Shown here in pieces: positions 14,841 to 41,559 of a stretch of 64,000 nucleotides of DNA (position 1 is its first letter; each line of letters begins with the position of its first letter). The DNA lies in the sequence record PX880100.1. One strand, 5' to 3'. Source of the stretch: a phage. A program made the position numbers and the translations under genes. The notes beneath the pieces are model-generated. The model saw nothing but the letters and a program-made list of their open reading frames with translations, was not told where the DNA came from and did not search any database.

Positions 14841-15038
14841 TTAGACACTTAAAATACTTCTAATCTCTTCTATATACTTATCTACTTTTTTAGCATCTAC
14901 TTTACTTAGTTTTCCTATGTCAAAATCAGGATCAGTAAACATTCTAGCTATCTCTATCTCTAGAGACTTACTAATTTTCCCTGTAGTATTCCACTTAGAA
15001 ATCTTACCTTTTATCTTCCAAAATTCCTTATTCATCAT
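14841..15038 (-). CDS. hypothetical protein (65 aa)
   Basis: Track ORF co-oriented with neighbours. Confidence 0.45.
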   Translation of the reverse strand: MMNKEFWKIKGKISKWNTTGKISKSLEIEIARMFTDPDFDIGKLSKVDAKKVDKYIEEIRSILSV

Positions 15039-15118
15039 TTAACCCCGGAACATATATCCCAACACGGTTTAATTGTTCTTTAGCTTCTTTGAGAATATCT
15101 GGAGTGTACTCCCAAATA

Positions 15119-15421
15119 TCATCTTCCACCTGTAAAAAAATGGGGCGAACAACCATCATCCGGCACACGACATATGGCCAAACAACGTGGATGGAACAAA
15201 GAGAAATTTAGGGCAACAATTAAACCCATAGCAGACAATTCATTCCAATCCAATTCCCATTCCCCGGCGTATCCAGACAGGAAAACGCCAATGCATGGAT
15301 CATCTATTTGCTGCTCAGGAAAAGTGAAAGAGACTTGTCTTACCCCCAACCAACGTTGTAGCAGCTTCTCCGCACGTTTCACCAAACTAGGATCAATCTG
15401 ACGCCAATATACTTGTTCCAT
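15119..15421 (-). CDS. hypothetical protein (100 aa), paralog of the adjacent gene
   Basis: Shares DDPCIGVFLSGYAGEWELDWNELSAMGLIVALNFSLF with DEAPCIGLIVQVEEGLEEIVGWKELDEMGLVFALNYKLF in ORF 15431..15859. Confidence 0.55.
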   Translation of the reverse strand: MEQVYWRQIDPSLVKRAEKLLQRWLGVRQVSFTFPEQQIDDPCIGVFLSGYAGEWELDWNELSAMGLIVALNFSLFHPRCLAICRVPDDGCSPHFFTGGR

Positions 15422-15430: not shown

Positions 15431-15859
15431 TTAAGCAGTTAAACCTGGGATCATATACCCGAAACGGCGAAGTTTTTGGATACCATCATTCACTTCTTCT
15501 GGTGAGTAAGACCAACCATAACGTTCATTAACCTGAAAACCAGGAGATTCACTAGTTTTATAGTTAACAACGAGGCGATGCTTAGCAGACATAAACAGCT
15601 TATAGTTTAACGCAAAAACTAAGCCCATTTCATCTAACTCTTTCCAGCCGACAATCTCTTCAAGGCCCTCTTCTACCTGAACAATTAAACCAATACAGGG
15701 GGCCTCATCAATATCATCTTTAAAAGCAAAGGAGATTTCGTTATTCTCACACCATATTTTCAAGGAGTTAATAGCCTCATTATACAGGCTAGCCGGGAGA
15801 GTACGCCAAAAGTTAACCAAAATTGGGTTAGCTTCTTTAGAGAAGACATTATTAAACAT
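15431..15859 (-). CDS. hypothetical protein (142 aa), paralog of the adjacent gene
   Basis: Track ORF; C-terminal half homologous to ORF 15119..15421 (tandem duplication). Confidence 0.55.
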   Translation of the reverse strand: MFNNVFSKEANPILVNFWRTLPASLYNEAINSLKIWCENNEISFAFKDDIDEAPCIGLIVQVEEGLEEIVGWKELDEMGLVFALNYKLFMSAKHRLVVNYKTSESPGFQVNERYGWSYSPEEVNDGIQKLRRFGYMIPGLTA

Positions 15860-15861
15860 AT

Positions 15862-16374
15862 TTACACCTTAAATTGTTGTAGGGCTTTACACATTTCAAG
15901 ATCTGGACTAAATTCTAACATATAGCTAACAGCTTTTAAATCCTGAAGATTTATCCCGGTCCTACCGTTGACTATAACCGTTGGATACTGATACATCATA
16001 GCACCCCCATCATCAAGCACACACCAATGTTTGAGCTTATGCTTTTCAACGAAGCGAAGAACAGAATTACCCCTAGATAATCCACCCCCAGTAAAATCCG
16101 TTGTACCAAGAAAACGATCGATAAGACCTAATCCGGTCATAATCTGAACGTTCTCCATCTCATTTCTGACAGAGAACCAAGATGATACTCCAACAATCAT
16201 TATCGGAGAAGGACGAATAAAGTCCTGAAAAGCCTTGAGAAGCGGTTTGAAAACCCAGTCACTTCCAAAGAAAATCTTTTCATCATCAGGTGCATGATGG
16301 TGGGAGATGCTTGAATTGAGCACCCCATCAATGTCCAGAAAAATAATTGGAGTATTACTTATTTCCTGACACAT
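15862..16374 (-). CDS. HAD-superfamily hydrolase (phosphatase/nucleotidase-like)
   Basis: 170 aa; N-terminal IIFLDIDGVLNS matches HAD motif I (DxDG[TV]); 20-nt overlap with upstream Sir2-like gene. Confidence 0.6.
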   Translation of the reverse strand: MCQEISNTPIIFLDIDGVLNSSISHHHAPDDEKIFFGSDWVFKPLLKAFQDFIRPSPIMIVGVSSWFSVRNEMENVQIMTGLGLIDRFLGTTDFTGGGLSRGNSVLRFVEKHKLKHWCVLDDGGAMMYQYPTVIVNGRTGINLQDLKAVSYMLEFSPDLEMCKALQQFKV

Positions 16375-17170
16375 GAGGTCTACCCCCTAAATGAGCTTCT
16401 ACACGAGCAATAAAATCAGGATCACTGAAAGCATCTACCGCACCTTTACTCCAGTAAGGGATACCGCGTTCTTCCAGCTGGTACATCTCACTACGAGTCA
16501 TACCTTGATAGCCAGGTTCCGCCGCTAGGGCACTATCATAGTAGTTAACAACCATTAGCTTGGCAGCAGTCAAATTAAGAACAGGAAATAGTTCCCAGTA
16601 GAAGTTAATTACTTGGTTAGAGCAACCAACCACAATGATCATATCTTGACTGGTAATACCATCAAAAACATTGTACATTTCCGCATATGCTGGAGCATGC
16701 TCTCCAAAGAAGATTACATTAGGTTTAACCCATTTATAATCATCTGGATCAATAGAATTGTATCCTACATCAATAATCCGTTTATTGCTACTATTGTAGC
16801 TATCAGCTACAACAACCTCTTTTAAATATCCGTGAATGTGCAGAATGTCACTATGTGGAACGCCAGCACGCTCAATAAGGTCATCAACGTTGGTAGTCAA
16901 GTTTACTACTTGACCTGGATATTGTTTATACCATTCACCAATACGCAAATGCGCAAGATTGGGTTCAACAGTTTTTAGCTCTTCACGACGCCTGTTGTAA
17001 AACATATGGGTTTTATGATAAAAATTACCACGAAAGGCATGAATATTGCATACCTCTTCTAAGTCATAATCATCCCACAATGCTTTACCACTAGCAGTAT
17101 CAGTACGGAAGGCTCGTACACCGCTTTCAACACTCAAACCTGCACCGCTAATAACAATTAATCTACGCAT
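16355..17170 (-). CDS. Sir2-family NAD-dependent enzyme (zinc-ribbon-less sirtuin-like protein)
   Basis: 271 aa; GAGLSVESGVRAFR, TTNVDDL, HIHG and NVIFFGE motifs in Sir2 order; no CxxC zinc-ribbon cysteines after the HG motif. Confidence 0.7.
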   Translation of the reverse strand: MRRLIVISGAGLSVESGVRAFRTDTASGKALWDDYDLEEVCNIHAFRGNFYHKTHMFYNRRREELKTVEPNLAHLRIGEWYKQYPGQVVNLTTNVDDLIERAGVPHSDILHIHGYLKEVVVADSYNSSNKRIIDVGYNSIDPDDYKWVKPNVIFFGEHAPAYAEMYNVFDGITSQDMIIVVGCSNQVINFYWELFPVLNLTAAKLMVVNYYDSALAAEPGYQGMTRSEMYQLEERGIPYWSKGAVDAFSDPDFIARVEAHLGGRPHVSGNK

Positions 17171-17384
17171 TTTTCACCTGTTCTCTGAAGTTTTGCCCAA
17201 TACTGTCTAATAGCTCAGCTAATTCTTTATTGCCTTTCTCCATTAAGGTATTAGCAATAACTTCTAGCATAGTAGCGCAGGATTCAATACCATCCTTATA
17301 GCCAGTTTCCCAGTGCTGCATTAATGCGTTTTCCAAAGCGGCGTTTAAACCCTTATCTGGTAGCATCGGCTTCGAGAATGCCAT
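17163..17384 (-). CDS. hypothetical protein (73 aa)
   Basis: Track ORF, overlapping neighbours in an operon-like chain. Confidence 0.45.
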   Translation of the reverse strand: MAFSKPMLPDKGLNAALENALMQHWETGYKDGIESCATMLEVIANTLMEKGNKELAELLDSIGQNFREQVKNA

Positions 17385-17577
17385 AAAGTTTCTCCTCTAG
17401 TTCCATAACACGATTTTCATAAGAGGCACGCAACTTTTCAATTGCCAGCGCACGCACTGTAACCTCATTAGAATTAATAGCTAACTGGGCCAGATCTTCT
17501 GTTTCCATACGTCCGTTGTAAATTAAGCGATATTTAAGGTGCTTCACATTCTTAGTCATTATTAAACTCCACTGCAA
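17353..17577 (-). CDS. hypothetical protein (74 aa)
   Basis: Track ORF, overlapping neighbours in an operon-like chain. Confidence 0.45.
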   Translation of the reverse strand: MQWSLIMTKNVKHLKYRLIYNGRMETEDLAQLAINSNEVTVRALAIEKLRASYENRVMELEEKLYGILEADATR

Positions 17578-17932
17578 CTGTTTCTAGGTCTTCATCAGAA
17601 AAACTAGAGTATATATCTTTAAGATACTGTTTAATACTCCAAGTAATATCTTCATACCCATTGGGGCTACGTTGGTATACTTTTAACACTCTATTATACA
17701 CAAATTCAAGATTACATTTTACTTCATCTCTGTCTTCATCAAACAAGCAATATGGGTTATAAGGCGATACATCTAGATTTGTTCCTACCCAATCGCCAAT
17801 AATGGTAGGGTATGCAACACCCTCTATACGCGAGTAATCACCTGTGGCAGCAAAGACAGCCTCCGCAATATCATCCACACCCAGATGGAAACTACCACAT
17901 GTAGATTCAACTATATAAGGCTTTAATTTCAT
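17552..17932 (-). CDS. hypothetical protein (126 aa)
   Basis: Track ORF; PN25-like promoter immediately upstream. Confidence 0.5.
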   Translation of the reverse strand: MKLKPYIVESTCGSFHLGVDDIAEAVFAATGDYSRIEGVAYPTIIGDWVGTNLDVSPYNPYCLFDEDRDEVKCNLEFVYNRVLKVYQRSPNGYEDITWSIKQYLKDIYSSFSDEDLETVAVEFNND

Positions 17933-17989: not shown

Positions 17990-18024
17990 ATAAAATAAAA
18001 GCCAGGTCGACTAGCAACCCGGCT
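17990..18024 (-). terminator. putative rho-independent terminator after nrdD
   Basis: Imperfect GC-rich hairpin (GCCAGGT...ACCCGGC) followed on the reverse strand by a T-run; approximate. Confidence 0.45.
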
Positions 18025-33838: not shown

Positions 33839-33913
33839 CGGGGTGTAGTCTAAGGGAGAGGCAGGAGTCTTCTAAATTCCTTTATGCAGGTTCGAATCCT
33901 GTCACCTCGGCCA
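33839..33913 (+). tRNA. tRNA-Arg (anticodon UCU)
   Basis: Acceptor CGGGGTG/CACCTCG, D-arm GTCT..AGGC, anticodon arm GGAGT-CTTCTAA-ATTCC, T-arm GCAGG-TTCGAAT-CCTGT, encoded CCA. Confidence 0.7.
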
Positions 33914-33947
33914 ATTTTATTAACTGTAACTAAAACAAAGGAAATAT

Positions 33948-34895
33948 ATGTTTAATACTAAAAATATGAAAGAACTGACTTCTGAGCAGAAAGTAATTCG
34001 TACTATTAAACGTTGGGGGATTGGTGCTGTAGTTGGTTTAGCAGGTTTAGTTCTAGCTCTTAACTCCTATACCGTTGTTCAAGACGGTACTGTTAAGACC
34101 CAGACTTTCTTGGGTAAAGTTGATCCTAATCCAGTATTACCTGGTTTCCATGTTGTAAATCCTTTTGCTTCTTTTGATACTTTTAGTACTAAAGATATTG
34201 CTCTAAAATTAGATAAACTTCAGGTTCCTAGTCAGGATAAGTTTAAATCCACTGTTGACCTGACTGTTATGTTGCAGTTTGATGGTTCTAAAGCACCGAT
34301 TAACCGTATTAATGCAGGTAATCAGGATCAAGCGTTAGACAAATATGTAACTGAAAAATTACTGTCTACTATTCGTGAGTTTGGTAAGTCTGTACCTAAA
34401 GCACAAGATTTATTTGATGCTAAAATTCAGGCTCAATTGCAAACTGCAATTCAACAGGAAGTTGAAGAGTATGCACGCCCATATGGTTACACAGTTAAGC
34501 AGGTGTTCCTTCAGGATATTACTTTGCCACCGGTAATCATGGAACAGGTACAGAATACCAAAGTTCGTGAAGAACAGGTTAATGCTGCTAAAGCTGAATT
34601 AGCTCGTGTTGAACAGGAAGCACAGCAAAAAGTTAAACAAGCAGAAGCAGATCGTGAAGCTCGCAACAACCAAGCTATTGCTAATGAACGTGACGCAGAT
34701 GCTAAACTGTACGCAGCTAAGAAAGAAGCTGAAGCTAACGCCGCATTGCAACGTACCATTACTCCTGAGATGATTCGCTGGAAGCAACTGGAAGTTGAAA
34801 TGATCCGTGCTCAGAAGTATCAAGGTGGTGTACCACAGACGGTAGTTGGTACTGGTTATGATGGCCAAATGATCATGGATATGCGTAATAAATAA
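33948..34895 (+). CDS. SPFH/band-7 (prohibitin/HflC-like) membrane protein
   Basis: 315 aa; N-terminal TM helix (WGIGAVVGLAGLVLALN), central SPFH-like region, C-terminal coiled coil rich in A/E/Q/K/R. Confidence 0.6.
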   Translation: MFNTKNMKELTSEQKVIRTIKRWGIGAVVGLAGLVLALNSYTVVQDGTVKTQTFLGKVDPNPVLPGFHVVNPFASFDTFSTKDIALKLDKLQVPSQDKFKSTVDLTVMLQFDGSKAPINRINAGNQDQALDKYVTEKLLSTIREFGKSVPKAQDLFDAKIQAQLQTAIQQEVEEYARPYGYTVKQVFLQDITLPPVIMEQVQNTKVREEQVNAAKAELARVEQEAQQKVKQAEADREARNNQAIANERDADAKLYAAKKEAEANAALQRTITPEMIRWKQLEVEMIRAQKYQGGVPQTVVGTGYDGQMIMDMRNK

Positions 34896-34919
34896 TACCC
34901 GCATGTAACATCTGAAGTA

Positions 34920-34954
34920 AGCCCTGCGTTTCCTGGAGAGCGCAGGGCTTTTCT
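34920..34954 (+). terminator. rho-independent terminator
   Basis: AGCCCTGCG...CGCAGGGCT hairpin followed by TTTCT; approximate. Confidence 0.6.
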
Positions 34955-34991
34955 ATATAATGTAATTATAAAACTAACTAGGAGATTAAAC

Positions 34992-35510
34992 ATGGGTGTT
35001 GATGAATTAACACAGCATCTTCTATCTAGAGGATTTGATGCAGATAAATATCATTGCTGGTTAAGTCCGGAAGGATGGCTAACAGTCCCGTTGTATGATT
35101 TCTCTGGGATGTTGAGGGGCTATCAAACTTATAATCCTTCTGCTCCAAAAGGTCATGGTAAGTATCCCTTTGAAGCTAAATATTTTACCTATTCTACTAC
35201 CCAGTGTGTATGGGGATTAGAAACTCTCAATGGAGATGAAAAAGTAGTATTGATCGCTGAATCTGTATTTAAGGCAGTTGCGTTACATAACGCTGGTTAT
35301 CCAGCCCTAGCAATGTTGGGTTCTTCTCCAGGAAAAGCGTTATTAAAGCAACTGAAATTATTACCTTTTAAATTGGTAGCTGTCGGGGATAACGATCCTG
35401 CGGGTGAAAAATTTGCTAGAAAATTAAACGGCTTTGTTTCTCCTGTAGATGTGGATGAGATGTCTACCGAAAACTTGAAAAATTTTCTTGCTATGAAGCT
35501 AAATTTCTAA
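34992..35510 (+). CDS. hypothetical protein (172 aa)
   Basis: Track ORF with GGAGA RBS. Confidence 0.5.
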   Translation: MGVDELTQHLLSRGFDADKYHCWLSPEGWLTVPLYDFSGMLRGYQTYNPSAPKGHGKYPFEAKYFTYSTTQCVWGLETLNGDEKVVLIAESVFKAVALHNAGYPALAMLGSSPGKALLKQLKLLPFKLVAVGDNDPAGEKFARKLNGFVSPVDVDEMSTENLKNFLAMKLNF

Positions 35511-35531
35511 TATAATATATCTTATAAATTC

Positions 35532-35620
35532 GGAAGAATAGCATAACGGTATTGCAGCAGATTGCTAATCTGTCGGTTTGAAATATAGCCTTGTGGGTTC
35601 GATTCCCACTTCTTCCGCCA
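35532..35620 (+). tRNA. tRNA-Ser (anticodon GCU), class II
   Basis: Acceptor GGAAGAA/TTCTTCC, 3-bp D-stem, anticodon arm GCAGA-TTGCTAA-TCTGT, long variable arm, T-arm GTGGG-TTCGATT-CCCAC, encoded CCA. Confidence 0.7.
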
Positions 35621-35626
35621 AATTCT

Positions 35627-35704
35627 GGTTCTCAAGCTCATATGGTATGAGCACCCAGCTCATAACTGGAAGGTACGTAGGTTCGAATCCTCGGGGAGCC
35701 ACCA
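35627..35704 (+). tRNA. tRNA with CAU anticodon (Met or Ile2 type)
   Basis: Acceptor GGTTCTC/GGGAGCC with G-U pairs, D-arm GCTC..GAGC, anticodon loop CTCATAA, encoded CCA; T-stem has two mismatches, so fold is uncertain. Confidence 0.5.
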
Positions 35705-35922
35705 ACTTAATTAGGGGATTACAAGTGGAATTATACATAGTTTATGTTGTGTTTATTCAAGATAGAGAATACCCTGATGAATATAAAAAAGGATATAGGT
35801 TAGCCAGAGCTACCTCTGAAGTCCAAGCTATGGATAAAGTGGCAGATTATATGATTACGGTAGAAAACGTACACTATATCGACTACCTTGAGGCCTCAAA
35901 AGTAATTGACTAAGGAGACTAT

Positions 35923-36108
35923 ATGTCCAAGTTTCAAGAACTCAAGCAAGAGCTAGAAGAATGTGCCTGCCCTGAGTGTAGGGGAATTGGTGAAAGTTCT
36001 GATGCAGAAGCAGGAGATACTTTTTGCAATATCTGGGTTTGCCCAAATTGCAATGGTACAGGTATTAATCCTAACTGTGGTATTTCTCTAGATATTGAAA
36101 GAGGGTAA
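35923..36108 (+). CDS. small zinc-ribbon-like protein (61 aa)
   Basis: Track ORF; CxxC...CxxC cysteine pairs (CACPECRG, CPNCNG); AAGGAG RBS. Confidence 0.5.
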   Translation: MSKFQELKQELEECACPECRGIGESSDAEAGDTFCNIWVCPNCNGTGINPNCGISLDIERG

Positions 36109-36209
36109 TATCTGTGAAACTAAAAGATTATTATATTGGTTGGTTTGTGGGACTAGTAGTAGGATTTTCACTAGGCTATAATATGTATCAACTAATAAAC
36201 TGATTACAC

Positions 36210-36286
36210 GGGGGTGTAATCGAATTGGCATAGGTACTGGACTTAAAATTCAGGTTTTGTGGGTTCGAATCCCACCACCCCTACCA
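36210..36286 (+). tRNA. tRNA with UAA anticodon (Leu-type anticodon, short variable arm)
   Basis: Acceptor GGGGGTG/CACCCCT, anticodon arm CTGGA-CTTAAAA-TTCAG, T-arm GTGGG-TTCGAAT-CCCAC, encoded CCA; D-arm not cleanly resolved. Confidence 0.5.
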
Positions 36287-36301
36287 AATTAAGGAAATAA
36301 G

Positions 36302-36469
36302 ATGTATAGACCTCCACCTCCGCCAACACGTCGTTCTAGAGAAGTTATCCTCATGGAATTGACTAAAAACTTCAAGGCAACTCTTGAAGATAGAGATTTA
36401 GGCACGGATGAAGACATTGATTTTATTTGTAGACTATTAAAGATGAAACTGGAGAAACAACATGGCTAA
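36302..36469 (+). CDS. hypothetical small protein (55 aa, below track cutoff)
   Basis: ATG at 36302 with AAGGAAATAAG RBS right after the tRNA; proline-rich N-terminus; overlaps the next ORF start. Confidence 0.5.
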   Translation: MYRPPPPPTRRSREVILMELTKNFKATLEDRDLGTDEDIDFICRLLKMKLEKQHG

Positions 36470-36668
36470 TCCTGAAATTACCGCACAACGTTTCATGCTT
36501 AAAGGCATGATTGCTGAAGCAGGTATGACTCAAGAGGTTGCAGACTTTCATAAGCAAATTCTTGATATTATAACTCTAGCTAAAGAGACTGGAGAAAAAG
36601 AGCACGCAGCAGCAATTATGGCTATATCTCTTATTAGTCTAGACTTGGCTGAAGAATCTGGAGTTTAG
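36462..36668 (+). CDS. hypothetical protein (68 aa)
   Basis: Track ORF. Confidence 0.5.
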   Translation: MANPEITAQRFMLKGMIAEAGMTQEVADFHKQILDIITLAKETGEKEHAAAIMAISLISLDLAEESGV

Positions 36669-36698
36669 CTCCTCCAAATAGAATTTTTAAAAATGTAC

Positions 36699-36728
36699 TT
36701 GCCTTTTGCTTTAAATTTCTGATATAAT
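36699..36728 (+). promoter_or_regulatory. early promoter
   Basis: TTGCCT, 18-bp spacer, TATAAT, then AGTTATATAAATTGATGAAGGAG; approximate. Confidence 0.55.
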
Positions 36729-36758
36729 AGTTATATAAATTGATGAAGGAGTTAACTA

Positions 36759-37034
36759 ATGCAAAATCGTGTTATAGCAACTGGTATTGAAAGTGCAATC
36801 TGTAAATCCTGGGAAGGCTGGGAAGGTGAGATTGAATGGCTTTATTTCTATGATGTAGAACTTCTGCCGGAAGTTAAAGCTAAATGTGTTGAAGCTGGAA
36901 TGGCTCCAGATGCAAAAGCTGATATTGATATTTCAATGTCTGAACTTAAAGGCCGTGTAATTACTGTTAGTGATGAGGGTGAAGAAGTTTTCGAACTTCC
37001 ATTCTCCTTAACTGTCACTCCTAAGTTCGACTAA
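36759..37034 (+). CDS. hypothetical protein (91 aa)
   Basis: Track ORF downstream of promoter. Confidence 0.5.
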   Translation: MQNRVIATGIESAICKSWEGWEGEIEWLYFYDVELLPEVKAKCVEAGMAPDAKADIDISMSELKGRVITVSDEGEEVFELPFSLTVTPKFD

Positions 37035-37070
37035 CTAATACAGCACTGAGCAAGTTCTTTAAAATTTGAC

Positions 37071-37099
37071 TTGCTCAGTGCCTTAAAACTTGGTATAAT
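37071..37099 (+). promoter_or_regulatory. early promoter feeding a tRNA block
   Basis: TTGCTC, 17-bp spacer, TATAAT; followed by a 14-bp inverted-repeat leader hairpin and tRNAs; approximate. Confidence 0.5.
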
Positions 37100-37161
37100 A
37101 GTTATCTAATTTGGAAACATATTTAAAAGTGTTTAAACTAGTATTTGAATACTTTTAAATA

Positions 37162-37267
37162 TGTTGGATTAGTATCGTAGAGGTAGCGAAGCAGACTGTA
37201 AATCTGCCGACTCGGAAGGGTCTCGGGTGGTTCGACTCCATCATCCATCATCCATCATCCAACACCA
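37162..37267 (+). tRNA. tRNA-Tyr-like (anticodon GUA), class II, atypically long; boundaries uncertain
   Basis: Perfect anticodon arm GCAGA-CTGTAAA-TCTGC, D-stem TCG/CGA, T-arm GGTGG-TTCGACT-CCATC; 3' region carries ATCCATC-ATCCATC-ATCCAAC then ACCA; GTTGGAT pairs with the last copy. Confidence 0.5.
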
Positions 37268-37274
37268 AATTTAA

Positions 37275-37351
37275 GTCCTGTTAGACAAACTGGTAAAGTC
37301 ACTACCCTTTCAAGGTAGGATTTGCGGGTTCGATCCCCGCACAGGACGCCA
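37275..37351 (+). tRNA. tRNA-Glu (anticodon UUC)
   Basis: Acceptor GTCCTGT/ACAGGAC, anticodon arm CTACC-CTTTCAA-GGTAG, T-arm GCGGG-TTCGATC-CCCGC, encoded CCA. Confidence 0.8.
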
Positions 37352-37360
37352 ATTTCTGCA

Positions 37361-37436
37361 TTCCTAGAGTGTTACTGGACAGCATGTCGGTCTCCAAAAT
37401 CGTACGGTCTAGGTTCGAGTCCTAGTAGGTTTGCCA
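37361..37436 (+). tRNA. tRNA-Trp-like (anticodon CCA), acceptor pairing unresolved
   Basis: Anticodon arm TCGGT-CTCCAAA-ATCGT and T-arm CTAGG-TTCGAGT-CCTAG with encoded CCA; spacing to neighbouring tRNAs fits, but 5' acceptor strand could not be paired by eye. Confidence 0.4.
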
Positions 37437-37442
37437 AAATTT

Positions 37443-37517
37443 GCACCTTTAGCTGAGATGGATTAGCGCTTGCCTGAAGAGCTTGAGAGGTTCGTTCGAT
37501 ACGAACAGGGTGCACCA
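37443..37517 (+). tRNA. tRNA-Phe-like (anticodon GAA)
   Basis: Acceptor GCACCTT/AGGGTGC, D-arm GCTG..TAGC, T-arm GTTCG-TTCGATA-CGAAC, encoded CCA; anticodon loop CTGAAGA but stem has two U-U mismatches. Confidence 0.55.
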
Positions 37518-37519
37518 AA

Positions 37520-37807
37520 TTGAGGGGGCTGCTGATGCATCCTGAAAACTTCTTTATTTACTGCGCTGATAAGTCGCTGAAACGTAGAATTAACAAAGTC
37601 TATCATTATCGTGCTAGTCAACAGCCTTATGTATATGCTTTTGACGGTGATCACATTCCATTAGAACAATTATCTTGTGATTACATGATATTGAAGAACT
37701 TTGACGAGACAAAGATCTCAAGCGTTCATAATCGACAGAATCCCTTAACGTGGAAATATAAGAAGAAAAAGAAAGGCATCAAATTCTTAAAAAATGTAGT
37801 TGCTTAG
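37520..37807 (+). CDS. hypothetical protein (95 aa)
   Basis: Track ORF starting 3 nt after the tRNA; TTG start. Confidence 0.45.
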   Translation: MRGLLMHPENFFIYCADKSLKRRINKVYHYRASQQPYVYAFDGDHIPLEQLSCDYMILKNFDETKISSVHNRQNPLTWKYKKKKKGIKFLKNVVA

Positions 37808-37828
37808 TTTCCAAAAGTTCTGTATAAT
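37800..37828 (+). promoter_or_regulatory. PN25-type early promoter
   Basis: TTGCTT, 17-bp spacer, TATAAT, then AATTACATAAATTGAACTGGAG; approximate. Confidence 0.55.
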
Positions 37829-37857
37829 AATTACATAAATTGAACTGGAGAAGCAAC

Positions 37858-38082
37858 ATGACAGAACAAGAATTGAATGAACGTAAGCTGGTAATGCTCC
37901 GCTTACTAAACATTTTCTCTGGTATGGATGGGGGTATTGACTTTGTTCATCTACGTTCTTTTGTAGAAGAAGCAGAAGGTGAATCTATCACTAAAATCCT
38001 TAAACATATGGGTTTACTATTAGATGCTGCTGGTGTAGCAACGGAATATAACCTCGAAGATCTACCGGAGCGTATTAAATGA
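37858..38082 (+). CDS. hypothetical protein (75 aa)
   Basis: ATG at 37858 with GGAG RBS; track lists an extended frame from 37840. Confidence 0.5.
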   Translation: MTEQELNERKLVMLRLLNIFSGMDGGIDFVHLRSFVEEAEGESITKILKHMGLLLDAAGVATEYNLEDLPERIK

Positions 38083-38267
38083 AGAAGCCAAAAGCTAAAT
38101 TAGTTAAGTTCGACTGTTGTGACACAGAAATCTTATTCACTAAGTTTGGTGAATTTAAGATGTGTGAATGTGGAACATGTGGTTATGATCATGGTGATGG
38201 ATATTATTGCAGGACTCTTGGACCAGCAAATCTAATCCACTTTTCATGGCCGGAAGATAAAGAATAA
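38079..38267 (+). CDS. small zinc-ribbon-like protein (62 aa)
   Basis: Track ORF; cysteine clusters FDCCDTE and CECGTCGYDHGDGYYC; 4-nt overlap with upstream gene. Confidence 0.5.
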   Translation: MKKPKAKLVKFDCCDTEILFTKFGEFKMCECGTCGYDHGDGYYCRTLGPANLIHFSWPEDKE

Positions 38268-38269
38268 TT

Positions 38270-38344
38270 GCATCCTTGTCCGAGTGGCTTAGGTGACGGT
38301 CTGCAAAATCGTCTAGGTTGGTTCAATTCCAGCAGGGTGCTCCA
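38270..38344 (+). tRNA. tRNA-Cys (anticodon GCA)
   Basis: Acceptor GCATCCT/AGGGTGC, anticodon arm ACGGT-CTGCAAA-ATCGT, T-arm GTTGG-TTCAATT-CCAGC, encoded CCA. Confidence 0.7.
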
Positions 38345-38350
38345 AATTCA

Positions 38351-38433
38351 GGGTCGTTAGCCAAGCGGTTTGGCGGTGGACTGTTAATCCATGTCGAAAG
38401 ACAACGTAGGTTCGAATCCTACACGGCCCGCCA
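38351..38433 (+). tRNA. tRNA-Asn (anticodon GUU) with an enlarged (~13-nt) variable region
   Basis: Acceptor GGGTCGT/ACGGCCC, D-arm GCCA..TGGC, anticodon arm GTGGA-CTGTTAA-TCCAT, T-arm GTAGG-TTCGAAT-CCTAC, encoded CCA. Confidence 0.65.
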
Positions 38434-38535
38434 AATTCTGTGTAGAGTTAAGTAAACCGGTAGCCAACCAGCTATCATTGCTGACATCGAATTCAGCCAC
38501 AGATACCATTTTCATTAATAACTGAGGAAACAAGC

Positions 38536-38721
38536 ATGTCCAAGAATGTAATTGCGCAGCTAGAAGTTCATCGTGATAGCACTATCAACAATATTGAAGT
38601 TGAGAAGAAATACATCGAAGAACTTAAACATGATATACTAGTAAGTCTCAACCGTCTTAATGTACGAAAAGAGTTTCTTAAAGAACTTAATGCAGCTATT
38701 GAAAAACTCAAAGCTGAGTAA
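38536..38721 (+). CDS. hypothetical protein (61 aa)
   Basis: Track ORF with GAGGAAAC RBS. Confidence 0.5.
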   Translation: MSKNVIAQLEVHRDSTINNIEVEKKYIEELKHDILVSLNRLNVRKEFLKELNAAIEKLKAE

Positions 38722-38730
38722 ATGAATTAT

Positions 38731-38807
38731 GCGACCGGGGCTGGCTTGGTAATGGTACTCCCCTGTCACGGGAGGGAATGTGGGTTCAAATCCCATCGGT
38801 CGCGCCA
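38731..38807 (+). tRNA. tRNA-Asp (anticodon GUC)
   Basis: Acceptor GCGACCG/CGGTCGC, anticodon arm CTCCC-CTGTCAC-GGGAG, T-arm GTGGG-TTCAAAT-CCCAT, encoded CCA. Confidence 0.8.
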
Positions 38808-38824
38808 AATAAGGTAGGTTAGCT

Positions 38825-38983
38825 ATGGAACGTAGAGAGTTTACTCCAGAAGAGATAGAGCAGATAAAAGAATCTGCTACGAAAAATGCTAGAATATCTC
38901 TGTCACTAGAAGGTATCATTATTAGTGATGTAAACTTTGAAAAAATCAAAGCCATAGCTGATGAACTGGAAAAAGTAATTTAA
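38825..38983 (+). CDS. hypothetical small protein (52 aa, below track cutoff)
   Basis: ATG at 38825 with AAGGTAGG RBS between two tRNAs; acidic helical peptide. Confidence 0.45.
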   Translation: MERREFTPEEIEQIKESATKNARISLSLEGIIISDVNFEKIKAIADELEKVI

Positions 38984-38984
38984 T

Positions 38985-39060
38985 ACATCCATAGCTCAAT
39001 GGTTAGAGCTACCGCCTCTTAAGCGGAGGGTTCTAGGTTCAAGTCCTAGTGGGTGTACCA
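38985..39060 (+). tRNA. tRNA-Lys (anticodon CUU)
   Basis: Acceptor ACATCCA/TGGGTGT, D-arm GCTC..GAGC, anticodon arm CCGC-CTCTTAA-GCGG, T-arm CTAGG-TTCAAGT-CCTAG, encoded CCA. Confidence 0.65.
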
Positions 39061-39086
39061 AACTAAACTAGCACGAGAAATATACT

Positions 39087-39434
39087 ATGCGTAATGCTAA
39101 AGAAGAGTTGTTACTTGCCTTAAAAAATACTAATTCTGAAGTTAAGTGTATTAAAATAGAATTCGGGTATTATGGGGACAAAAAAGTTTGGGTATTACCT
39201 CTGGGGTATACAGAAGAAGATATTGGGGATTTTCTTAATAACCTAGACTTTGAGTATGATTCTGGTTATGGTGGACAACTACTTTATGGTAATGTATGGT
39301 TTGCCGATGGAACCTGGCTAGAACGTGGGGAATATGATGGAGCTGAGTGGTGGGAATACAAGGCTACTCCAGCAATTCCAGAGGAATGCCGAACAATTAA
39401 TGGTGAAGTAGATAATACTTTAAGGTTAAACTAA
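39087..39434 (+). CDS. hypothetical protein (115 aa)
   Basis: Track ORF. Confidence 0.5.
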   Translation: MRNAKEELLLALKNTNSEVKCIKIEFGYYGDKKVWVLPLGYTEEDIGDFLNNLDFEYDSGYGGQLLYGNVWFADGTWLERGEYDGAEWWEYKATPAIPEECRTINGEVDNTLRLN

Positions 39435-39438
39435 TAAA

Positions 39439-39538
39439 ATTTCAGTGCAGAACACGGAGCTAGCAATTCGGAAGTGCTGACTCATGATAAGCTGCCTATG
39501 TACTTGCAAAGCGGTCGTGTCCAAGACTCGGACTCTTG
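39439..39538 (+). ncRNA. structured ORF-free element closed by a ~10-bp long-range stem
   Basis: TTCAGTGCAG at the 5' end pairs with CTTGCACTGAA at the 3' end, enclosing internal hairpins (GTCC-AAGACTC-GGAC); no ORF. Confidence 0.35.
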
Positions 39539-39556
39539 CACTGAAAACAATCAAAC

Positions 39557-39684
39557 ATTCTAGCGTGGTTGATGGGGAAACCAGCTTGGCTAGGGCAGAA
39601 GCTCGTTCGATTCGAGTGAAAGAATGGTTCTCGTAAGTCCGCACAAGTGATAATAGGTTCGAGTCCTGTCTAGAATGACACTAT
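39557..39684 (+). ncRNA. tRNA-like element of atypical length (~128 nt)
   Basis: ATTCTAG...CTAGAAT acceptor-like pairing, D-arm-like GGTT-GATGGGGA-AACC, two T-arm-like motifs; too long for a canonical tRNA. Confidence 0.3.
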
Positions 39685-39826
39685 AAAGTTTACTTATTAT
39701 GTAGGTTCCGATAGATCGGCGGGTCTATTCTGGCATTTAAGAGAGGTCTCGCAAACTTCTTTGTCAGCCGTGGGGTTGGTAGCCTCCAGGTGGCCTACAC
39801 AATAAGTAAATTTATTAAAAATTCAT

Positions 39827-39855
39827 TTGCTATTTCTCTTAATTATCTGTATAAT
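39827..39855 (+). promoter_or_regulatory. PN25-type early promoter
   Basis: TTGCTA, 17-bp spacer, TATAAT, then ATATTTTATAAAGTGAAGAGAAGG; approximate. Confidence 0.55.
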
Positions 39856-39887
39856 ATATTTTATAAAGTGAAGAGAAGGAAAGCAAA

Positions 39888-40046
39888 ATGAAACACAAGA
39901 TAGCTCAAGTTTTTATGGCATTATGGTGTATGCCAATAGCTATAACAGCATTTAATCTAGATACTTTTACTATAGAAGAAAAATGTATCGGATTAGTTAG
40001 TGGCTTTAGTATGCTTGGCTTATCTTTGTTGTGGTTGAAGAAATAA
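39888..40046 (+). CDS. hypothetical small membrane peptide (52 aa, below track cutoff)
   Basis: ATG at 39888 with GAAGGAAAG RBS after the promoter; hydrophobic sequence; stops 4 nt before tRNA-Pro. Confidence 0.5.
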   Translation: MKHKIAQVFMALWCMPIAITAFNLDTFTIEEKCIGLVSGFSMLGLSLLWLKK

Positions 40047-40050
40047 TATT

Positions 40051-40128
40051 CTCCGTGTAGCTCAGTTTGGCCAGAGCGTTTCGTTTGGGGCGATAGGGTC
40101 GGGGGTTCAAATCCTCCCACGGAGACCA
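40051..40128 (+). tRNA. tRNA-Pro (anticodon UGG)
   Basis: Acceptor CTCCGTG/CACGGAG, D-arm GCTC..GAGC, anticodon loop TTTGGGG (stem with one U-U), T-arm GGGGG-TTCAAAT-CCTCC, encoded CCA. Confidence 0.7.
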
Positions 40129-40134
40129 AACAAT

Positions 40135-40212
40135 TGCGGGTTAGATCTCTGGTAGAGATCGCTAGTCTCATAAGCTAGAAAGAGGTAGGTTCGATTCCTG
40201 CACCCGCTTCCA
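40135..40212 (+). tRNA. tRNA with CAU anticodon (Met-type; T-T mismatch at pair 1-72)
   Basis: Acceptor TGCGGGT/ACCCGCT, D-arm GATC..GATC, anticodon arm CTAGT-CTCATAA-GCTAG, T-arm GTAGG-TTCGATT-CCTGC, encoded CCA. Confidence 0.6.
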
Positions 40213-40232
40213 TTTTAATAGAGGATTTCGAA

Positions 40233-40400
40233 ATGAAAGTATTTCGATTAGTAGTAAGTGACAAACGCTTAGGTAAGAATACATCAAAATCCTTACTTGC
40301 TCATTATGGTAGAAATTGGGATGAAGTAATGGCAGAGTTTAGTACTAATCACTCTTACTTGAAAGTTCACTCTATTAAAGAAGTATACAATGGTTACTAA
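40233..40400 (+). CDS. hypothetical small protein (55 aa, below track cutoff)
   Basis: ATG at 40233 with GAGGA RBS between tRNAs. Confidence 0.45.
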   Translation: MKVFRLVVSDKRLGKNTSKSLLAHYGRNWDEVMAEFSTNHSYLKVHSIKEVYNGY

Positions 40401-40401
40401 T

Positions 40402-40480
40402 AGATCGCTAGCTCAATAGGTTTAGTAGCATCCGACTTTTAATCGGAAGGTTCTGGGTTCAAGTCCCAGGCGATCTACCA
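40402..40480 (+). tRNA. tRNA-Lys (anticodon UUU)
   Basis: Acceptor AGATCGC/GCGATCT, anticodon arm TCCGA-CTTTTAA-TCGGA, T-arm CTGGG-TTCAAGT-CCCAG, encoded CCA. Confidence 0.8.
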
Positions 40481-40484
40481 ATTT

Positions 40485-40558
40485 GCTCGGTTAGTTTAAT
40501 GGGAGAACCCCGTCTTTACATGGCGGTTGAGATAGTTCGATTCTATCACCGGGTACCA
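40485..40558 (+). tRNA. tRNA-Val (anticodon UAC)
   Basis: Acceptor GCTCGGT/ACCGGGT, anticodon arm CCGTC-TTTACAT-GGCGG, T-arm GATAG-TTCGATT-CTATC, encoded CCA. Confidence 0.8.
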
Positions 40559-40577
40559 ATTAACTCAAAATAAGGAA

Positions 40578-40937
40578 TTGCAAATGCAATTATCAAGCAA
40601 GATTCAAGGTTATTTCGGTCATGTGACAATGGAGTTCGCTATCTCTAAAGGTTGGGACTTCGAACAAGATTTAGCTGAGTTCTACAAAGATATTGATCTG
40701 AACGTACCGTACATGGGACTTTCTACTGGTCAGGAGATCACAGAAGCCGATGTATTCAAGGCAAGTCAAGGTGAGGTAACACCTAGTTTTGCCGAGTTCT
40801 GGTTAGGCATTACGTTAAAAGAAGATGCACCAGATAGTGGTGTACTAATGTCTAGTATGCACTCTGGAAGTTCCGATTACCTTTTCATTAGCGATGTTAA
40901 GGAAATACAAGAAGTCTGCAAAAATGTACTTGCTTGA
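40578..40937 (+). CDS. hypothetical protein (119 aa)
   Basis: Track ORF (TTG start; in-frame ATG at 40584) with AAGGAATTG RBS. Confidence 0.5.
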   Translation: MQMQLSSKIQGYFGHVTMEFAISKGWDFEQDLAEFYKDIDLNVPYMGLSTGQEITEADVFKASQGEVTPSFAEFWLGITLKEDAPDSGVLMSSMHSGSSDYLFISDVKEIQEVCKNVLA

Positions 40938-40957
40938 TGCTTAATTTCTTGTTATAA
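40929..40957 (+). promoter_or_regulatory. PN25-type early promoter feeding an ORF-free leader and tRNAs
   Basis: TTGCTT, 17-bp spacer, TATAAT, then ATTTATATAAATTGATGAGGAG; approximate. Confidence 0.55.
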
Positions 40958-41195
40958 TATTTATATAAATTGATGAGGAGAAATCCTCATCATAGTTCAC
41001 TAAGGTATTAGCTCGACCTAGGACTGGCTGCCAAAAAGCACGATCCCTACGATTCGGGAGAAGTTCTAGATTGGTCCACTAGATTCAGCGGCAACTGAAT
41101 AGTGTATTGGGTTTGCGAGATGACGTAGTTCCTTCCGCTCTAAGCGAAGGTGCTGTAGTTACGCCGAGCTAATAGCCTTAGTAAACTAAAGAATT

Positions 41196-41274
41196 TGGGG
41201 AATGGGTCTGCATGGAGTGGACACCTCGCTTGCACCGAGGACATCAGAACGGTTCGATTCCGTTATTCTCCACC
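41196..41274 (+). tRNA. tRNA-Ala (anticodon UGC)
   Basis: Acceptor GGGGAAT/ATTCTCC, D-arm GTCT..GGAC, anticodon arm CCTCG-CTTGCAC-CGAGG, T-arm AACGG-TTCGATT-CCGTT, encoded CCA. Confidence 0.8.
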
Positions 41275-41279
41275 AAATA

Positions 41280-41356
41280 CGCGTGATTGATGGAATTGGC
41301 ATACATACCGTCCTTAGAAGTCGGGTTTTGAGGGTTCGAATCCCTTGTCACGCACC
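41280..41356 (+). tRNA. tRNA with UAG anticodon (Leu-type anticodon, short variable arm)
   Basis: Acceptor GCGTGAT/GTCACGC, anticodon arm CCGTC-CTTAGAA-GTCGG (one mismatch), T-arm GAGGG-TTCGAAT-CCCTT, encoded CCA. Confidence 0.5.
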
Positions 41357-41468
41357 AAATTTGATGGTCAGAGTAAATTAAACCTACTATCTCGGTTGAG
41401 CTGTTTTAATGGGTTCGAATCCCAGCGAGGCGTAACTGCCTGGTGTGATAGAGGCATCATCTTATTAT

Positions 41469-41559
41469 TGGAAGAGCAAATCGAATTGGCGACGAAAACC
41501 GCTTGGAAAGTGGCTGACTGGTAAAACGGCTTGAGAGTTCAAATCTCTCCTCTTCCGCC
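41469..41559 (+). tRNA. tRNA-Ser (anticodon GGA), class II
   Basis: Acceptor GGAAGAG/CTCTTCC, anticodon arm ACCGC-TTGGAAA-GTGGC, long variable arm, T-arm GAGAG-TTCAAAT-CTCTC, encoded CCA. Confidence 0.7.

What the first reader, a model, noticed from the sequence alone, without database searches (positions are those of the whole stretch)
15862..17170. Overlapping Sir2-like / HAD-hydrolase gene pair inside the replication module
ORF 16355..17170 carries the Sir2 catalytic motifs in order (GAGxS...FR, TTNVD, HG, VIFFGE) but none of the zinc-ribbon cysteines expected after the HG motif. Its last 20 nt overlap ORF 15862..16374, whose N-terminus is a HAD motif I (FLDIDGVLNS). Sir2-fold enzymes consume or rearrange NAD+ and HAD enzymes dephosphorylate nucleotides and sugar phosphates, so a coupled pair could form a small NAD+/ADP-ribose module. 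In a lytic phage that might be nucleotide salvage, host-protein modification, or a counter to NAD+-depleting defence; which of these is not decidable from sequence.
Basis: partly seen in the sequence, partly recalled or inferred. Interest (0 to 1): 0.7.

Follow-up and report, generated by a model that had tools for sequence, protein, structure and literature searches.

The report
T5 sirtuin–HAD phosphatase gene pair
This is the already annotated sirtuin-like gene and its neighbouring small phosphatase gene of T5-like phages. It is a real, conserved but dispensable NAD-linked accessory pair, its biochemical job has never been tested, and it most likely acts in RNA-end or ADP-ribose-phosphate processing.

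Summary
On the minus strand, 16355..17170 encodes a 271-aa Sir2-family protein with every catalytic motif and no zinc-ribbon cysteines. 15862..16374 encodes a 170-aa capless HAD phosphatase (Pfam HAD_SAK_2) with all four HAD motifs. The two genes overlap by 20 nt.

The window is a T5-like phage, and the genes are the homologues of T5.102 and T5.105. They are 94–98% identical to copies in hundreds of sequenced phages.

The pairing was already described by Iyer et al. 2022 (type "SP15"), who proposed a KptA/Tpt1-like RNA 2'-phosphate removal role. No experiment was found in the held literature.

New here:
- The pair stays adjacent in divergent Demerecviridae although the gene order is permuted.
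- The overlap itself is a minority arrangement; T5 has two small ORFs between the genes.
- Phage DT57C has lost both genes. Sugarland-type phages keep Sir2 only.
- T5-likes have no RNA ligase, kinase or NARP genes.
- The closest non-T5 relatives of this HAD sit inside NARP1 (Adps–Namat) NAD+-rebuilding operons. There, a Macro-domain ADPR-1''-phosphate phosphatase is the known accessory gene.

Best reading (about 0.35): the sirtuin transfers ADP-ribose onto a phosphate and the HAD clears the phosphorylated by-product. A CobB-like deacylase is the main rival.

Ordinary as a finding; modest interest.

The parts
16355..17170 (-). Sir2-like sirtuin, 271 aa, homologue of T5.102. It is class-III (CobB/SIRT5)-like and has no zinc cysteines.
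   Evidence: Pfam SIR2 8.5e-25. phrog_2162 1e-119. Best PDB sequence match is CobB 1s5p, 1e-17, with His/Asn/Asp aligned. AF2 pLDDT 90.3. Foldseek to CobB gives TM 0.71/0.85, followed by SIRT5. 94% aa identity to T5.102.
15862..16374 (-). Capless (C0) HAD phosphatase, 170 aa, HAD_SAK_2 family, homologue of T5.105.
16355..16388 (-). Gene junction: a 20-nt overlap of the Sir2 3' end with the HAD 5' end, plus an SD-like AGGGGG 8 nt upstream of the HAD ATG.
   Evidence: Read directly from the sequence. This arrangement is found in only 4 of 28 T5-like loci.
17552..17932 (-). T5.100 homologue (126 aa, unknown function). First gene of the transcription unit. A relative sits between HAD and Sir2 in divergent Demerecviridae.
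   Evidence: phrog_11748. phmmer to T5.100 9.5e-82 and to the L002 116-aa gene 1.6e-13. Alignment A3. No PDB or cREC relationship.
17353..17577 (-). T5.101 homologue (74 aa, unknown function).
   Evidence: phmmer 1.3e-37 to T5.101.
17163..17384 (-). 73-aa ORF overlapping the Sir2 start by 8 nt. Unknown function. No counterpart annotated in T5.
   Evidence: phrog_5827 1.2e-30. Annotated as gp151 in phiP4.
15431..15859 (-). DUF7415 protein (142 aa), T5.106 homologue, immediately downstream of the HAD.
   Evidence: Pfam DUF7415 2.5e-35. phmmer 7.8e-93 to T5.106.
15028..15421 (-). T5.107 homologue (a DUF7415 paralogue). In this window it is split into two frames by one extra T in a T-run.
   Evidence: ORFs 15119..15421 and 15028..15168 both match T5.107. 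The nucleotide alignment shows the +1 T.
18000..18024 (-). Terminator-like hairpin after nrdD. It marks the upstream boundary of the T5.100–T5.107-type unit.
   Evidence: Pattern scan. The T5 record annotates a terminator and a promoter at the same place.

Best explanation
The pair belongs to an early, accessory transcription unit of a T5-like phage (homologues of T5.100 to T5.107).

Shown:
- The 271-aa protein is a sirtuin of a phage-specific clade whose nearest cellular relatives are class-III deacylases (CobB, SIRT5).
- It keeps the NAD+ site, the catalytic His113/Asn94/Asp96 and the Tyr58-x-x-Arg61 anion pocket.
- It has lost the four zinc cysteines.
- The 170-aa protein is a catalytically complete, capless HAD phosphomonoesterase.

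Inferred mechanism:
1. The sirtuin uses NAD+ to ADP-ribosylate a phosphate group on a nucleic-acid end. This would be a 2'-phosphate left after healing of a 2',3'-cyclic phosphate, as proposed by Iyer et al. 2022.
2. The His-activated ribose 2''-OH then resolves the adduct, as in Tpt1/KptA. This frees the RNA hydroxyl and releases nicotinamide plus ADP-ribose cyclic or 1''-phosphate.
3. The HAD removes the phosphate from that ADP-ribose phosphate, or alternatively from the RNA end.

In phages that also carry NARP1, the resulting ADP-ribose and nicotinamide can be rebuilt into NAD+. T5-likes have neither an RNA ligase/kinase nor NARP, so they would depend on host enzymes for the remaining steps.
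For: Fold and residues.

HAD motifs and capless architecture.

Orthologous sirtuins (57-64% identity) in Vequintavirinae and Mydo-like phages lie in a co-directional run. The run is metallophosphoesterase, RNA_lig_T4_1, cREC ('cyclic-phosphate processing receiver'), AAA_33 kinase, then Sir2. In one jumbo-phage contig RnlA lies just upstream of Sir2.

The published comparative analysis names this exact SP15-type neighbourhood. The SP15 HAD is 97.6% identical (H111).

Coupling of the HAD with Sir2:
- All 28 T5-like IMG/VR loci that carry the HAD have Sir2 directly upstream.
- Five divergent Demerecviridae contigs have the permuted order HAD, T5.100-like, Sir2, with overlapping junctions.
- In Epseptimavirus-type phages the Sir2 allele is only about 52-60% identical while the HAD is about 90% identical, and the genes are still adjacent.
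- No HAD without Sir2 was seen in Demerecviridae, whereas Sir2 without the HAD was.

The HAD acting on an ADP-ribose phosphate:
- Its closest non-T5 relatives (35-43% identity, sister clade) sit in the NARP1 operon. The arrangements are HAD-Adps-Namat and HAD-99aa-Adps-Namat.
- In the contig an RNA-repair operon lies on the other strand, yet the HAD is in the NARP1 operon.
- A Macro-domain ADPR-1''-phosphate phosphatase is the experimentally shown accessory of NARP1.
- A more distant HAD abuts a NatV-like NMNAT-Nudix gene.

Chemistry (established knowledge): ADP-ribose carries a phosphomonoester only if the ADP-ribosyl acceptor was a phosphate, or if NADP or RES-type phosphorolysis is involved.
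Against: - No experiment exists for any phage sirtuin of this clade in the held literature.
- The protein retains every hallmark of a class-III lysine deacylase, including Y-x-x-R and FGE. No clade-specific basic residue was identified that would mark a phosphate acceptor site.
- T5 and this window have no detectable RNA ligase, polynucleotide kinase, cREC, Adps, Namat or NatV, so the pathway would be incomplete in this phage.
- Co-occurrence within Demerecviridae reflects essentially one ancestral acquisition plus one rearrangement. It is not many independent events.
- NAD-salvage genes are common in large phages, so some of the adjacencies may be chance.
Confidence: 0.35

Rival explanations
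1. The sirtuin is simply a phage-borne CobB-like protein lysine deacylase (deacetylase/desuccinylase) that reprogrammes host or phage proteins early in infection. The HAD is not mechanistically tied to it.
For: - The best sequence and fold matches are E. coli CobB and SIRT5.
- The best NCBIfam hits are NAD-dependent protein deacylase models.
- Invariant residues across 40 clade members include the catalytic His, Asn and Asp, the FGE substrate-staple motif and the class-III Y-x-x-R pocket.
Against: - All NCBIfam scores are far below the curated cut-offs: 45-101 bits against 221-395.
- The zinc Cys4 module, which is near-universal in deacylase sirtuins, is missing in the whole clade.
- Conserved neighbours in other phages are RNA-end enzymes and NAD-salvage enzymes, never protein-modification genes.
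- It does not explain the order-permuted but persistent adjacency with a phosphatase.
Confidence: 0.25
2. The two genes have unrelated jobs and are neighbours only by shared descent in a conserved early block. The HAD is a nucleotide or sugar-phosphate phosphatase of the adjacent nucleotide-metabolism module (nrdD, nrdAB, thy, frd).
For: - HAD relatives in T4-like phages lie among td, frd, nrdA.1 and dUTPase genes.
- In about 50 divergent viral loci the HAD has no Sir2 within 10 kb.
- Sir2 occurs in about 1000 phage records and the HAD in about 480.
- The spacing between the two genes varies, and small ORFs are inserted between them.
- The closest fold match, MDP-1, is a sugar-phosphate or protein phosphatase.
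Against: - Adjacency survives a permutation of gene order and a swap of the Sir2 allele.
- Within Demerecviridae the HAD was never seen without Sir2.
- The nearest HAD relatives are in NARP1 operons, which points to NAD-derived rather than dNTP substrates.
Confidence: 0.15
3. The pair is an anti-defence device aimed at host NAD+ warfare, independent of RNA. The HAD would dephosphorylate ADPR-1''-phosphate made by RES-type NAD+ phosphorylases (or 2'-phospho-ADPR). The sirtuin would act on another NAD-derived molecule or on a defence protein.
For: - A HAD of the same subfamily occupies the place in NARP1 operons where a Macro-domain ADPR-1P phosphatase counters aRES.
- The pair is dispensable, as anti-defence genes usually are.
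- Sir2 clade members lie next to Nampt or NARP1 in several phages.
Against: - T5-likes encode no Adps, Namat, Nampt or NMNAT, so ADP-ribose could not be rebuilt into NAD+.
- An active sirtuin consumes NAD+, which would worsen depletion.
- There is no match to PADLOC models.
- No anti-defence report for these genes was found.
Confidence: 0.15

Closest known systems
E. coli CobB and human SIRT5 (class III sirtuins)
   Same: Same fold (Foldseek TM 0.71/0.85 to 1s5p). About 25% identity. The GAGxS, FR, TxNxD and HG catalytic motifs are aligned, as are the FYNxRR (Y-x-x-R) pocket, the (K/R)P-x-V-x-FFGE motif and the PNxxH motif.
   Different: No Cys4 zinc site, although a three-strand small module is still predicted with pLDDT above 90. 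Scores fall below all NCBIfam CobB cut-offs. It is phage-specific, with RNA-repair and NAD-salvage neighbours.
Sirtuin-centred phage 'RNA repair' neighbourhoods of Iyer, Burroughs, Anantharaman and Aravind 2022 (Viruses 14:1977), type 3 typified by Escherichia phage SP15
   Same: [quoted passage not shown] The SP15 HAD is 97.6% identical to the window's.
   Different: Nothing differs structurally. The function proposed in the paper is computational only. My census adds three things: the NARP1 link of the HAD, the permuted order in divergent relatives, and natural losses.
Tpt1/KptA RNA 2'-phosphotransferase plus Poa1p ADPR-1''-phosphate phosphatase (tRNA splicing pathway)
   Same: Proposed functional analogy. 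NAD+ is consumed to remove a 2'-phosphate, which gives nicotinamide and ADP-ribose cyclic or 1''-phosphate. A dedicated phosphatase then clears that product (for KptA; for Poa1p).
   Different: No homology. Tpt1 has an ART fold and Poa1p has a Macro fold. Here the proteins have a Rossmann sirtuin fold and a HAD fold. The activity is untested.
NARP1-AP (Adps–Adpp–Namat) of Osterman et al. 2026 preprint
   Same: A phosphatase gene embedded in a NARP1 operon. HADs 35-43% identical to the window's occupy that position in Serratia phage ChuuTotoro, ABPH49, Kashira and a metagenomic contig.
   Different: The published Adpp is a Macro-domain protein, not a HAD. The window phage has no Adps or Namat.
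Capless HAD phosphatases (MDP-1, Scp1/Fcp1 CTD phosphatases, T4 Pnkp phosphatase domain)
Defence-type SIR2 NADases (ThsA, DSR1/2, SIR2-HerA, SIR2-pAgo)
   Same: Sir2 superfamily without zinc cysteines.
   Different: No PADLOC model matches. The top 50 Foldseek hits are all deacylase-type sirtuins. It is a stand-alone 271-aa protein without a sensor or partner domain, and it is encoded by the phage.

Membership tests
Sir2 family (Pfam PF02146) | Rossmann NAD+-binding core with the GAGxS and cofactor-loop FR motifs; score above the Pfam gathering cut-off. | tested here: met
   88.2 bits against a cut-off of 24. Motifs at residues 9-13 and 21-22. AF2 model matches sirtuin structures.
Sir2 family (Pfam PF02146) | Catalytic His with Asn/Asp of the TxNxD motif. 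| tested here: met
   H113, N94 and D96 align with the CobB catalytic residues. They are invariant in 40 homologues.
Canonical deacylase sirtuins (CobB/SIRT1-7) | Structural zinc bound by four cysteines in the small domain. | tested here: not met
   The only cysteines are C41 and C183, and none lies in residues 114-151. The tetrad is absent in all 40 clade members.
Class III sirtuins (CobB/SIRT5) | Y-x-x-R pocket for acidic acyl groups. Residue roles are taken from my own knowledge of SIRT5 Y102/R105. | tested here: met
   FYNRRR at residues 57-62 aligns with CobB FYNARRR. Y58 and R61 are invariant.
CobB equivalog (NCBIfam NF040867 and related) | Score above the curated cut-off. | tested here: not met
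   90.3 bits against 320. The best subfamily hit scores 100.6 against 243.
Canonical deacylase sirtuins (CobB/SIRT1-7) | NAD+-dependent lysine deacylase activity. | not testable with these tools
   Needs an enzyme assay.
Defence SIR2 NADases (PADLOC models) | Match to a defence SIR2 model or an associated sensor domain. | tested here: not met
   No SIR2 model hit. The only hit is a 0.065 chance match to a type I REase.
HAD superfamily, HAD_SAK_2 (PF18143) | Score above the gathering cut-off, and four catalytic motifs: DxD, S/T, K/R and DD. | tested here: met
   71.9 bits against 27.5. D14/D16, S64/S65, R101 and D121/D122 are invariant or nearly invariant in 26 homologues.
HAD superfamily, HAD_SAK_2 (PF18143) | Fusion to RNA-repair domains ('Swiss army knife' architecture). 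| tested here: not met
   The window protein is single-domain. All of the best 120 of more than 7200 profile hits carry only PF18143. Fused forms may exist further out in the family.
Iyer et al. 2022 sirtuin RNA-repair neighbourhood, type 3 (SP15) | A sirtuin of the phage clade adjacent to a SAK-like HAD. | tested here: met
   SP15 itself appears among the near-identical hits.
Iyer et al. 2022 sirtuin RNA-repair neighbourhood, type 3 (SP15) | An RNA sealing or 5'-kinase enzyme is available in the same genome. | tested here: not met
   None is annotated in T5. There is no phmmer hit with E<=1 for four RNA ligases, the Pnk kinase or cREC. The search covered the window and T5 1-50 kb and 52-112 kb.
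Tpt1/KptA RNA 2'-phosphotransferase | ART fold with the R-H-R-R catalytic tetrad. | tested here: not met
   The protein has a Rossmann sirtuin fold. Only a functional analogy is proposed.
NARP1 / NARP1-AP | Adps and Namat genes in the operon or genome. | tested here: not met
   No homologue in the window or in T5. They are present next to HAD relatives in other phages.

The most novel reading that the evidence does not exclude
This HAD subfamily is an ADP-ribose-phosphate phosphatase, that is, a non-homologous substitute for the Macro-domain Adpp/Poa1p. The zinc-less phage sirtuin clade is a non-homologous Tpt1. Together with NARP1, where present, they would form an NAD-neutral cycle in which nucleic-acid 2'-phosphates are removed at the expense of NAD+ and the ADP-ribose phosphate by-product is recycled. 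This would be the first sirtuin shown to act on a phosphate acceptor.
Probability: 0.2. Interest if true: 0.65.

Novelty: already known. Interest (0 to 1): 0.33.

Why it matters
About a thousand sequenced phage genomes carry a sirtuin of this clade, and not one has been assayed.

If it proves to be a Tpt1-like enzyme, it would extend sirtuin chemistry from acyl-lysine to phosphate acceptors. It would also add a new branch to phage RNA repair.

If the HAD is an ADP-ribose-phosphate phosphatase, it would be a second, independent solution to the problem recently shown for NARP1-AP in the NAD+ arms race.

If the sirtuin is just a deacylase, it would be a tool by which T5-like phages rewrite host acylation.

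The window itself adds nothing new. Its value is as a pointer to a cheap set of experiments.

Tried and rejected
- **PADLOC scan of both proteins:** nothing, so defence-type SIR2 was rejected.
- **PDB sequence search for the HAD:** no hit.
- **Foldseek afdb50 for the HAD:** the library was unavailable.
- **Burroughs and Aravind 2016 (source of the 'SAK' name):** not held under DOI or PMC id. What is said about SAK fusions therefore rests on the Pfam family name and on Iyer et al. 2022.
- **T5.100-like third partner as a possible cREC domain of the Vequintavirinae clusters:** hhalign probability 0.2%, rejected.
- **PDB profile and sequence searches for T5.100-like and DUF7415:** only chance matches.
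- **The gene upstream of the HAD in ChuuTotoro-type operons:** unrelated to T5.100.
- **Literature searches** for phage sirtuin experiments, T5.102/T5.105 and sirtuin+Tpt1: only the 2022 comparative paper and reviews.
- **The aRES preprint:** does not mention HAD phosphatases.
- **Bacterial contig L100 (same length as a Sir2 contig):** a coincidence, with no Sir2.
- **Several HAD contexts (L007, L010):** uninformative.
- **The idea that the sirtuin could rebuild NAD+ by reverse phosphorolysis of ADPR-1''-phosphate:** dropped as thermodynamically unfavourable and unsupported.
Full report
**What is there**

The window is a T5-like phage (Tequintavirus). The 2-kb stretch around the finding is 97.7% identical at the nucleotide level to several Escherichia and Salmonella T5-like phages, and it matches 441 phage records. 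The window also carries 24 tRNA genes and the T5-type nrdD, origin-binding and nucleotide-metabolism genes.

Their motifs are exactly as described:
- GAGLS at residues 9-13, FR at 21-22, TTNVD at 92-96, H113-G114 and VIFFGE at 152-157 in the 271-aa protein.
- FLDIDGVLNS at residues 12-21 in the 170-aa protein.
- A 20-nt overlap, with an AGGGGG element 8 nt before the second ATG.

In phage T5 the genes are T5.102 and T5.105. They lie in a unit T5.100 to T5.107 that is bounded by an annotated promoter after the nrdD terminator and by a terminator before the origin-binding gene. The same terminator-like hairpin is present in the window at 18000-18024.

**The sirtuin**

- Pfam SIR2 scores 88 bits.
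- The best solved relatives by sequence are E. coli CobB (1e-17), Sir2Af and SIRT5, with the catalytic His, Asn and Asp aligned.
- The AlphaFold model built on 40 homologues has pLDDT 90.3. Its best Foldseek matches are CobB (TM 0.71 by query, 0.85 by target) and then SIRT5 and other deacylase sirtuins. No defence SIR2 appears in the top 50, and PADLOC finds nothing.
- Forty homologues at 54-86% identity share invariant G9, A10, G11, S13, F21, R22, Y58, R61, R62, N94, D96, H113, G114, K149, P150, V152, F154, F155 and E157.
- The clade therefore keeps the class-III Y-x-x-R pocket. None of the 40 has the four zinc cysteines, and the window protein has only C41 and C183.
- The small three-strand module is still predicted with high confidence.
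- All NCBIfam deacylase models score far below their cut-offs.

The protein is a genuine, probably active, Sir2-fold enzyme. It fails one defining feature of canonical deacylase sirtuins.

**The HAD**

- Pfam HAD_SAK_2 scores 72 bits.
- D14, G17, S64, S65, R101 and D121 are invariant, and D16 and D122 nearly so, in 26 homologues down to 27% identity.
- The model has pLDDT 95.2 and shows no cap insertion after strand 1 or strand 3.
- A profile search finds more than 7200 relatives. The best 120 are all single-domain proteins.

**Is the pair a pair?**

- All 28 T5-like loci retrieved from IMG/VR through the HAD have Sir2 just upstream, but only four show the overlap. The rest have gaps of roughly 150, 320 or 500 nt. 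T5 itself has two small ORFs in the gap.
- Five divergent Demerecviridae contigs have the order HAD, T5.100-like gene, Sir2, with overlapping junctions. In these the HAD is 36-44% and Sir2 52-64% identical to the window's. The block sits between phoH/nrdD and the origin-binding gene. So the adjacency survived a permutation, and a third small gene travels with the pair.
- In Epseptimavirus-type phages Sir2 is only about 52-60% identical to the window's while the HAD is about 90% identical. The genes are still adjacent.
- Both genes are under purifying selection, with dN/dS 0.04-0.18.
- Losses occur. Sugarland-type Klebsiella phages and one 106-kb contig keep Sir2 and the DUF7415 genes but have no HAD.
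- DT57C retains only a 91-codon remnant that joins Sir2 residues about 171-212 to HAD residues 130-170. The pair is therefore dispensable.
- Within Demerecviridae I saw Sir2 without the HAD but never the HAD without Sir2.

**Context outside T5-likes**

The sirtuin clade is present in about 1000 phage records and the HAD in about 480.

*Sirtuin contexts.* In Vequintavirinae and Mydo-like phages the sirtuin ends a co-directional run. The run is metallophosphoesterase, RNA_lig_T4_1, cREC, AAA_33 kinase, then Sir2. A divergent Adps-Namat (NARP1) pair lies 4-5 kb away. Elsewhere the sirtuin follows a true Nampt (L160) or an RnlA (L161).

*HAD contexts.* Beyond Demerecviridae the HAD has no Sir2 within 10 kb in about 50 loci. 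Its nearest relatives form a sister clade in a rough neighbour-joining tree, and they sit inside NARP1 operons:
- HAD overlapping Adps in Serratia phages ChuuTotoro and Kashira and in 'Acinetobacter' phage ABPH49.
- HAD-99aa-Adps-Namat in a metagenomic contig that also has the RNA-repair operon on the other strand.

Other HAD contexts are more distant:
- One HAD abuts a NatV-like NMNAT-Nudix gene.
- In Aeh1-like T4 relatives the HAD lies between td and nrdA.1, about 650 nt upstream of rnlA, and a T5.107-like DUF7415 gene follows rnlA.

**What is published**

Iyer et al. 2022 describe exactly this neighbourhood (type 3, phage SP15). They propose that the sirtuin acts like KptA on RNA 2'-phosphates, and that HAD, cREC, 2H and similar enzymes either open the cyclic phosphate or process the ADP-ribose cyclic phosphate.

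Osterman et al. showed that NARP1 rebuilds NAD+ from ADP-ribose and nicotinamide. They also showed that some NARP1 operons add a Macro-domain ADPR-1''-phosphate phosphatase to beat RES-type NAD+ phosphorylases. HAD phosphatases are not mentioned there.

I found no experiment on any phage sirtuin of this clade.

**Mechanism**

*Shown:* two catalytically complete enzymes, an NAD+-using Sir2 and a phosphomonoesterase, are co-inherited and co-transcribed in an accessory early unit.

*Inferred:* a phosphatase can act downstream of a sirtuin only if the ADP-ribosyl acceptor is a phosphate. Sirtuin chemistry is formally the same as the two steps of Tpt1: a nucleophilic oxygen attacks C1'', then the His-activated 2''-OH attacks the electrophilic centre. 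The RNA-repair neighbours of the orthologous sirtuins, and the NARP1 position of the orthologous HADs, fit a scheme in which three things happen:
1. The sirtuin removes a nucleic-acid 2'-phosphate.
2. The HAD dephosphorylates the ADP-ribose phosphate by-product.
3. Where NARP1 is present, NAD+ is rebuilt.

I give this about 0.35.

The weak points are these:
- The protein still looks in every conserved residue like a class-III deacylase.
- T5-likes have no RNA ligase, kinase, cREC, Adps, Namat or NatV.
- The Demerecviridae co-occurrence is essentially one evolutionary event.

The rivals are:
- a plain CobB-like deacylase (0.25);
- unrelated functions, with the HAD serving nucleotide metabolism (0.15);
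- an RNA-independent anti-NAD+-depletion role (0.15).

**Verdict**

The gene pair is already annotated in T5, is present almost unchanged in hundreds of genomes, and has been described with a mechanistic hypothesis in the literature.

What remains open is the biochemistry. It suggests an ADP-ribose-phosphate substrate and is cheaply testable.

Noticed in passing
window 15028-15421 (minus strand): The T5.107 homologue (a DUF7415 paralogue) is broken into two frames by one extra T in a run of T's relative to T5. This is either a sequencing error in a homopolymer or a real pseudogene.
   Followed up: partly
window 15862-16374; T5 record NC_005859 T5.105; many GenBank records: The HAD is widely mis-annotated as 'Sir2 (NAD-dependent deacetylase)', which is why many records list Sir2 twice. 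PHROG phrog_18062 (92 positions, labelled Sir2) matches HAD residues 79-170 in full and Sir2 residues 169-216 weakly. This is the composition of the DT57C dead fusion ORF, so the label probably spread from such remnants.
   Followed up: partly
L004 6001-9217 (Serratia phage ChuuTotoro), L011, L162: A HAD_SAK_2 gene is the first gene of some NARP1 (Adps–Namat) operons. This would be a possible HAD counterpart of the Macro-domain Adpp of NARP1-AP, and it is not mentioned in the sections of the aRES preprint that I read.
   Followed up: partly
window 17552-17932; L002 743-1093; L099 7510-7872; L163 2894-3247; L164 6512-6868: A small protein family (T5.100-like, conserved G-D-Y-S-x-I-E-G-x-G-Y-P motif) travels with Sir2 and the HAD across Demerecviridae. 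It has no detectable relative in Pfam or the PDB.
   Followed up: partly
window 15431-15859 and 15028-15421; L012 7296-7529 (Aeh1 ORF299c): DUF7415 proteins follow the HAD in T5-likes, and a homologue follows rnlA in Aeromonas phage Aeh1. Its function is unknown.
   Followed up: no
L080 9950-11602 (KVP40-like Vibrio phage contig): A distant HAD_SAK_2 gene lies directly upstream of a NatV-like NMN adenylyltransferase–Nudix gene (NARP2 component).
   Followed up: partly
L141, L144-L146 versus the window: Within T5-like phages the Sir2 gene exists as two strongly divergent alleles (about 52-60% identity, one with a roughly 26-residue insertion), while the flanking HAD stays about 90% identical. 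This suggests recombinational replacement of Sir2 alone.
   Followed up: partly
phage collection hits H38, H56, H72, H146, H166: Records named Listeria, Campylobacter or Acinetobacter phage carry near-identical T5-like or rV5-like sequences. Host labels or sample purity look doubtful.
   Followed up: no
window 33839-43887: There are 24 tRNA genes in a 10-kb block, as in T5. This is relevant background if the pair deals with tRNA damage.
   Followed up: no
window 17163-17384: A 73-aa ORF (phrog_5827) overlaps the Sir2 start codon by 8 nt. It has no annotated counterpart in T5, where a 55-nt gap precedes T5.102.
   Followed up: no
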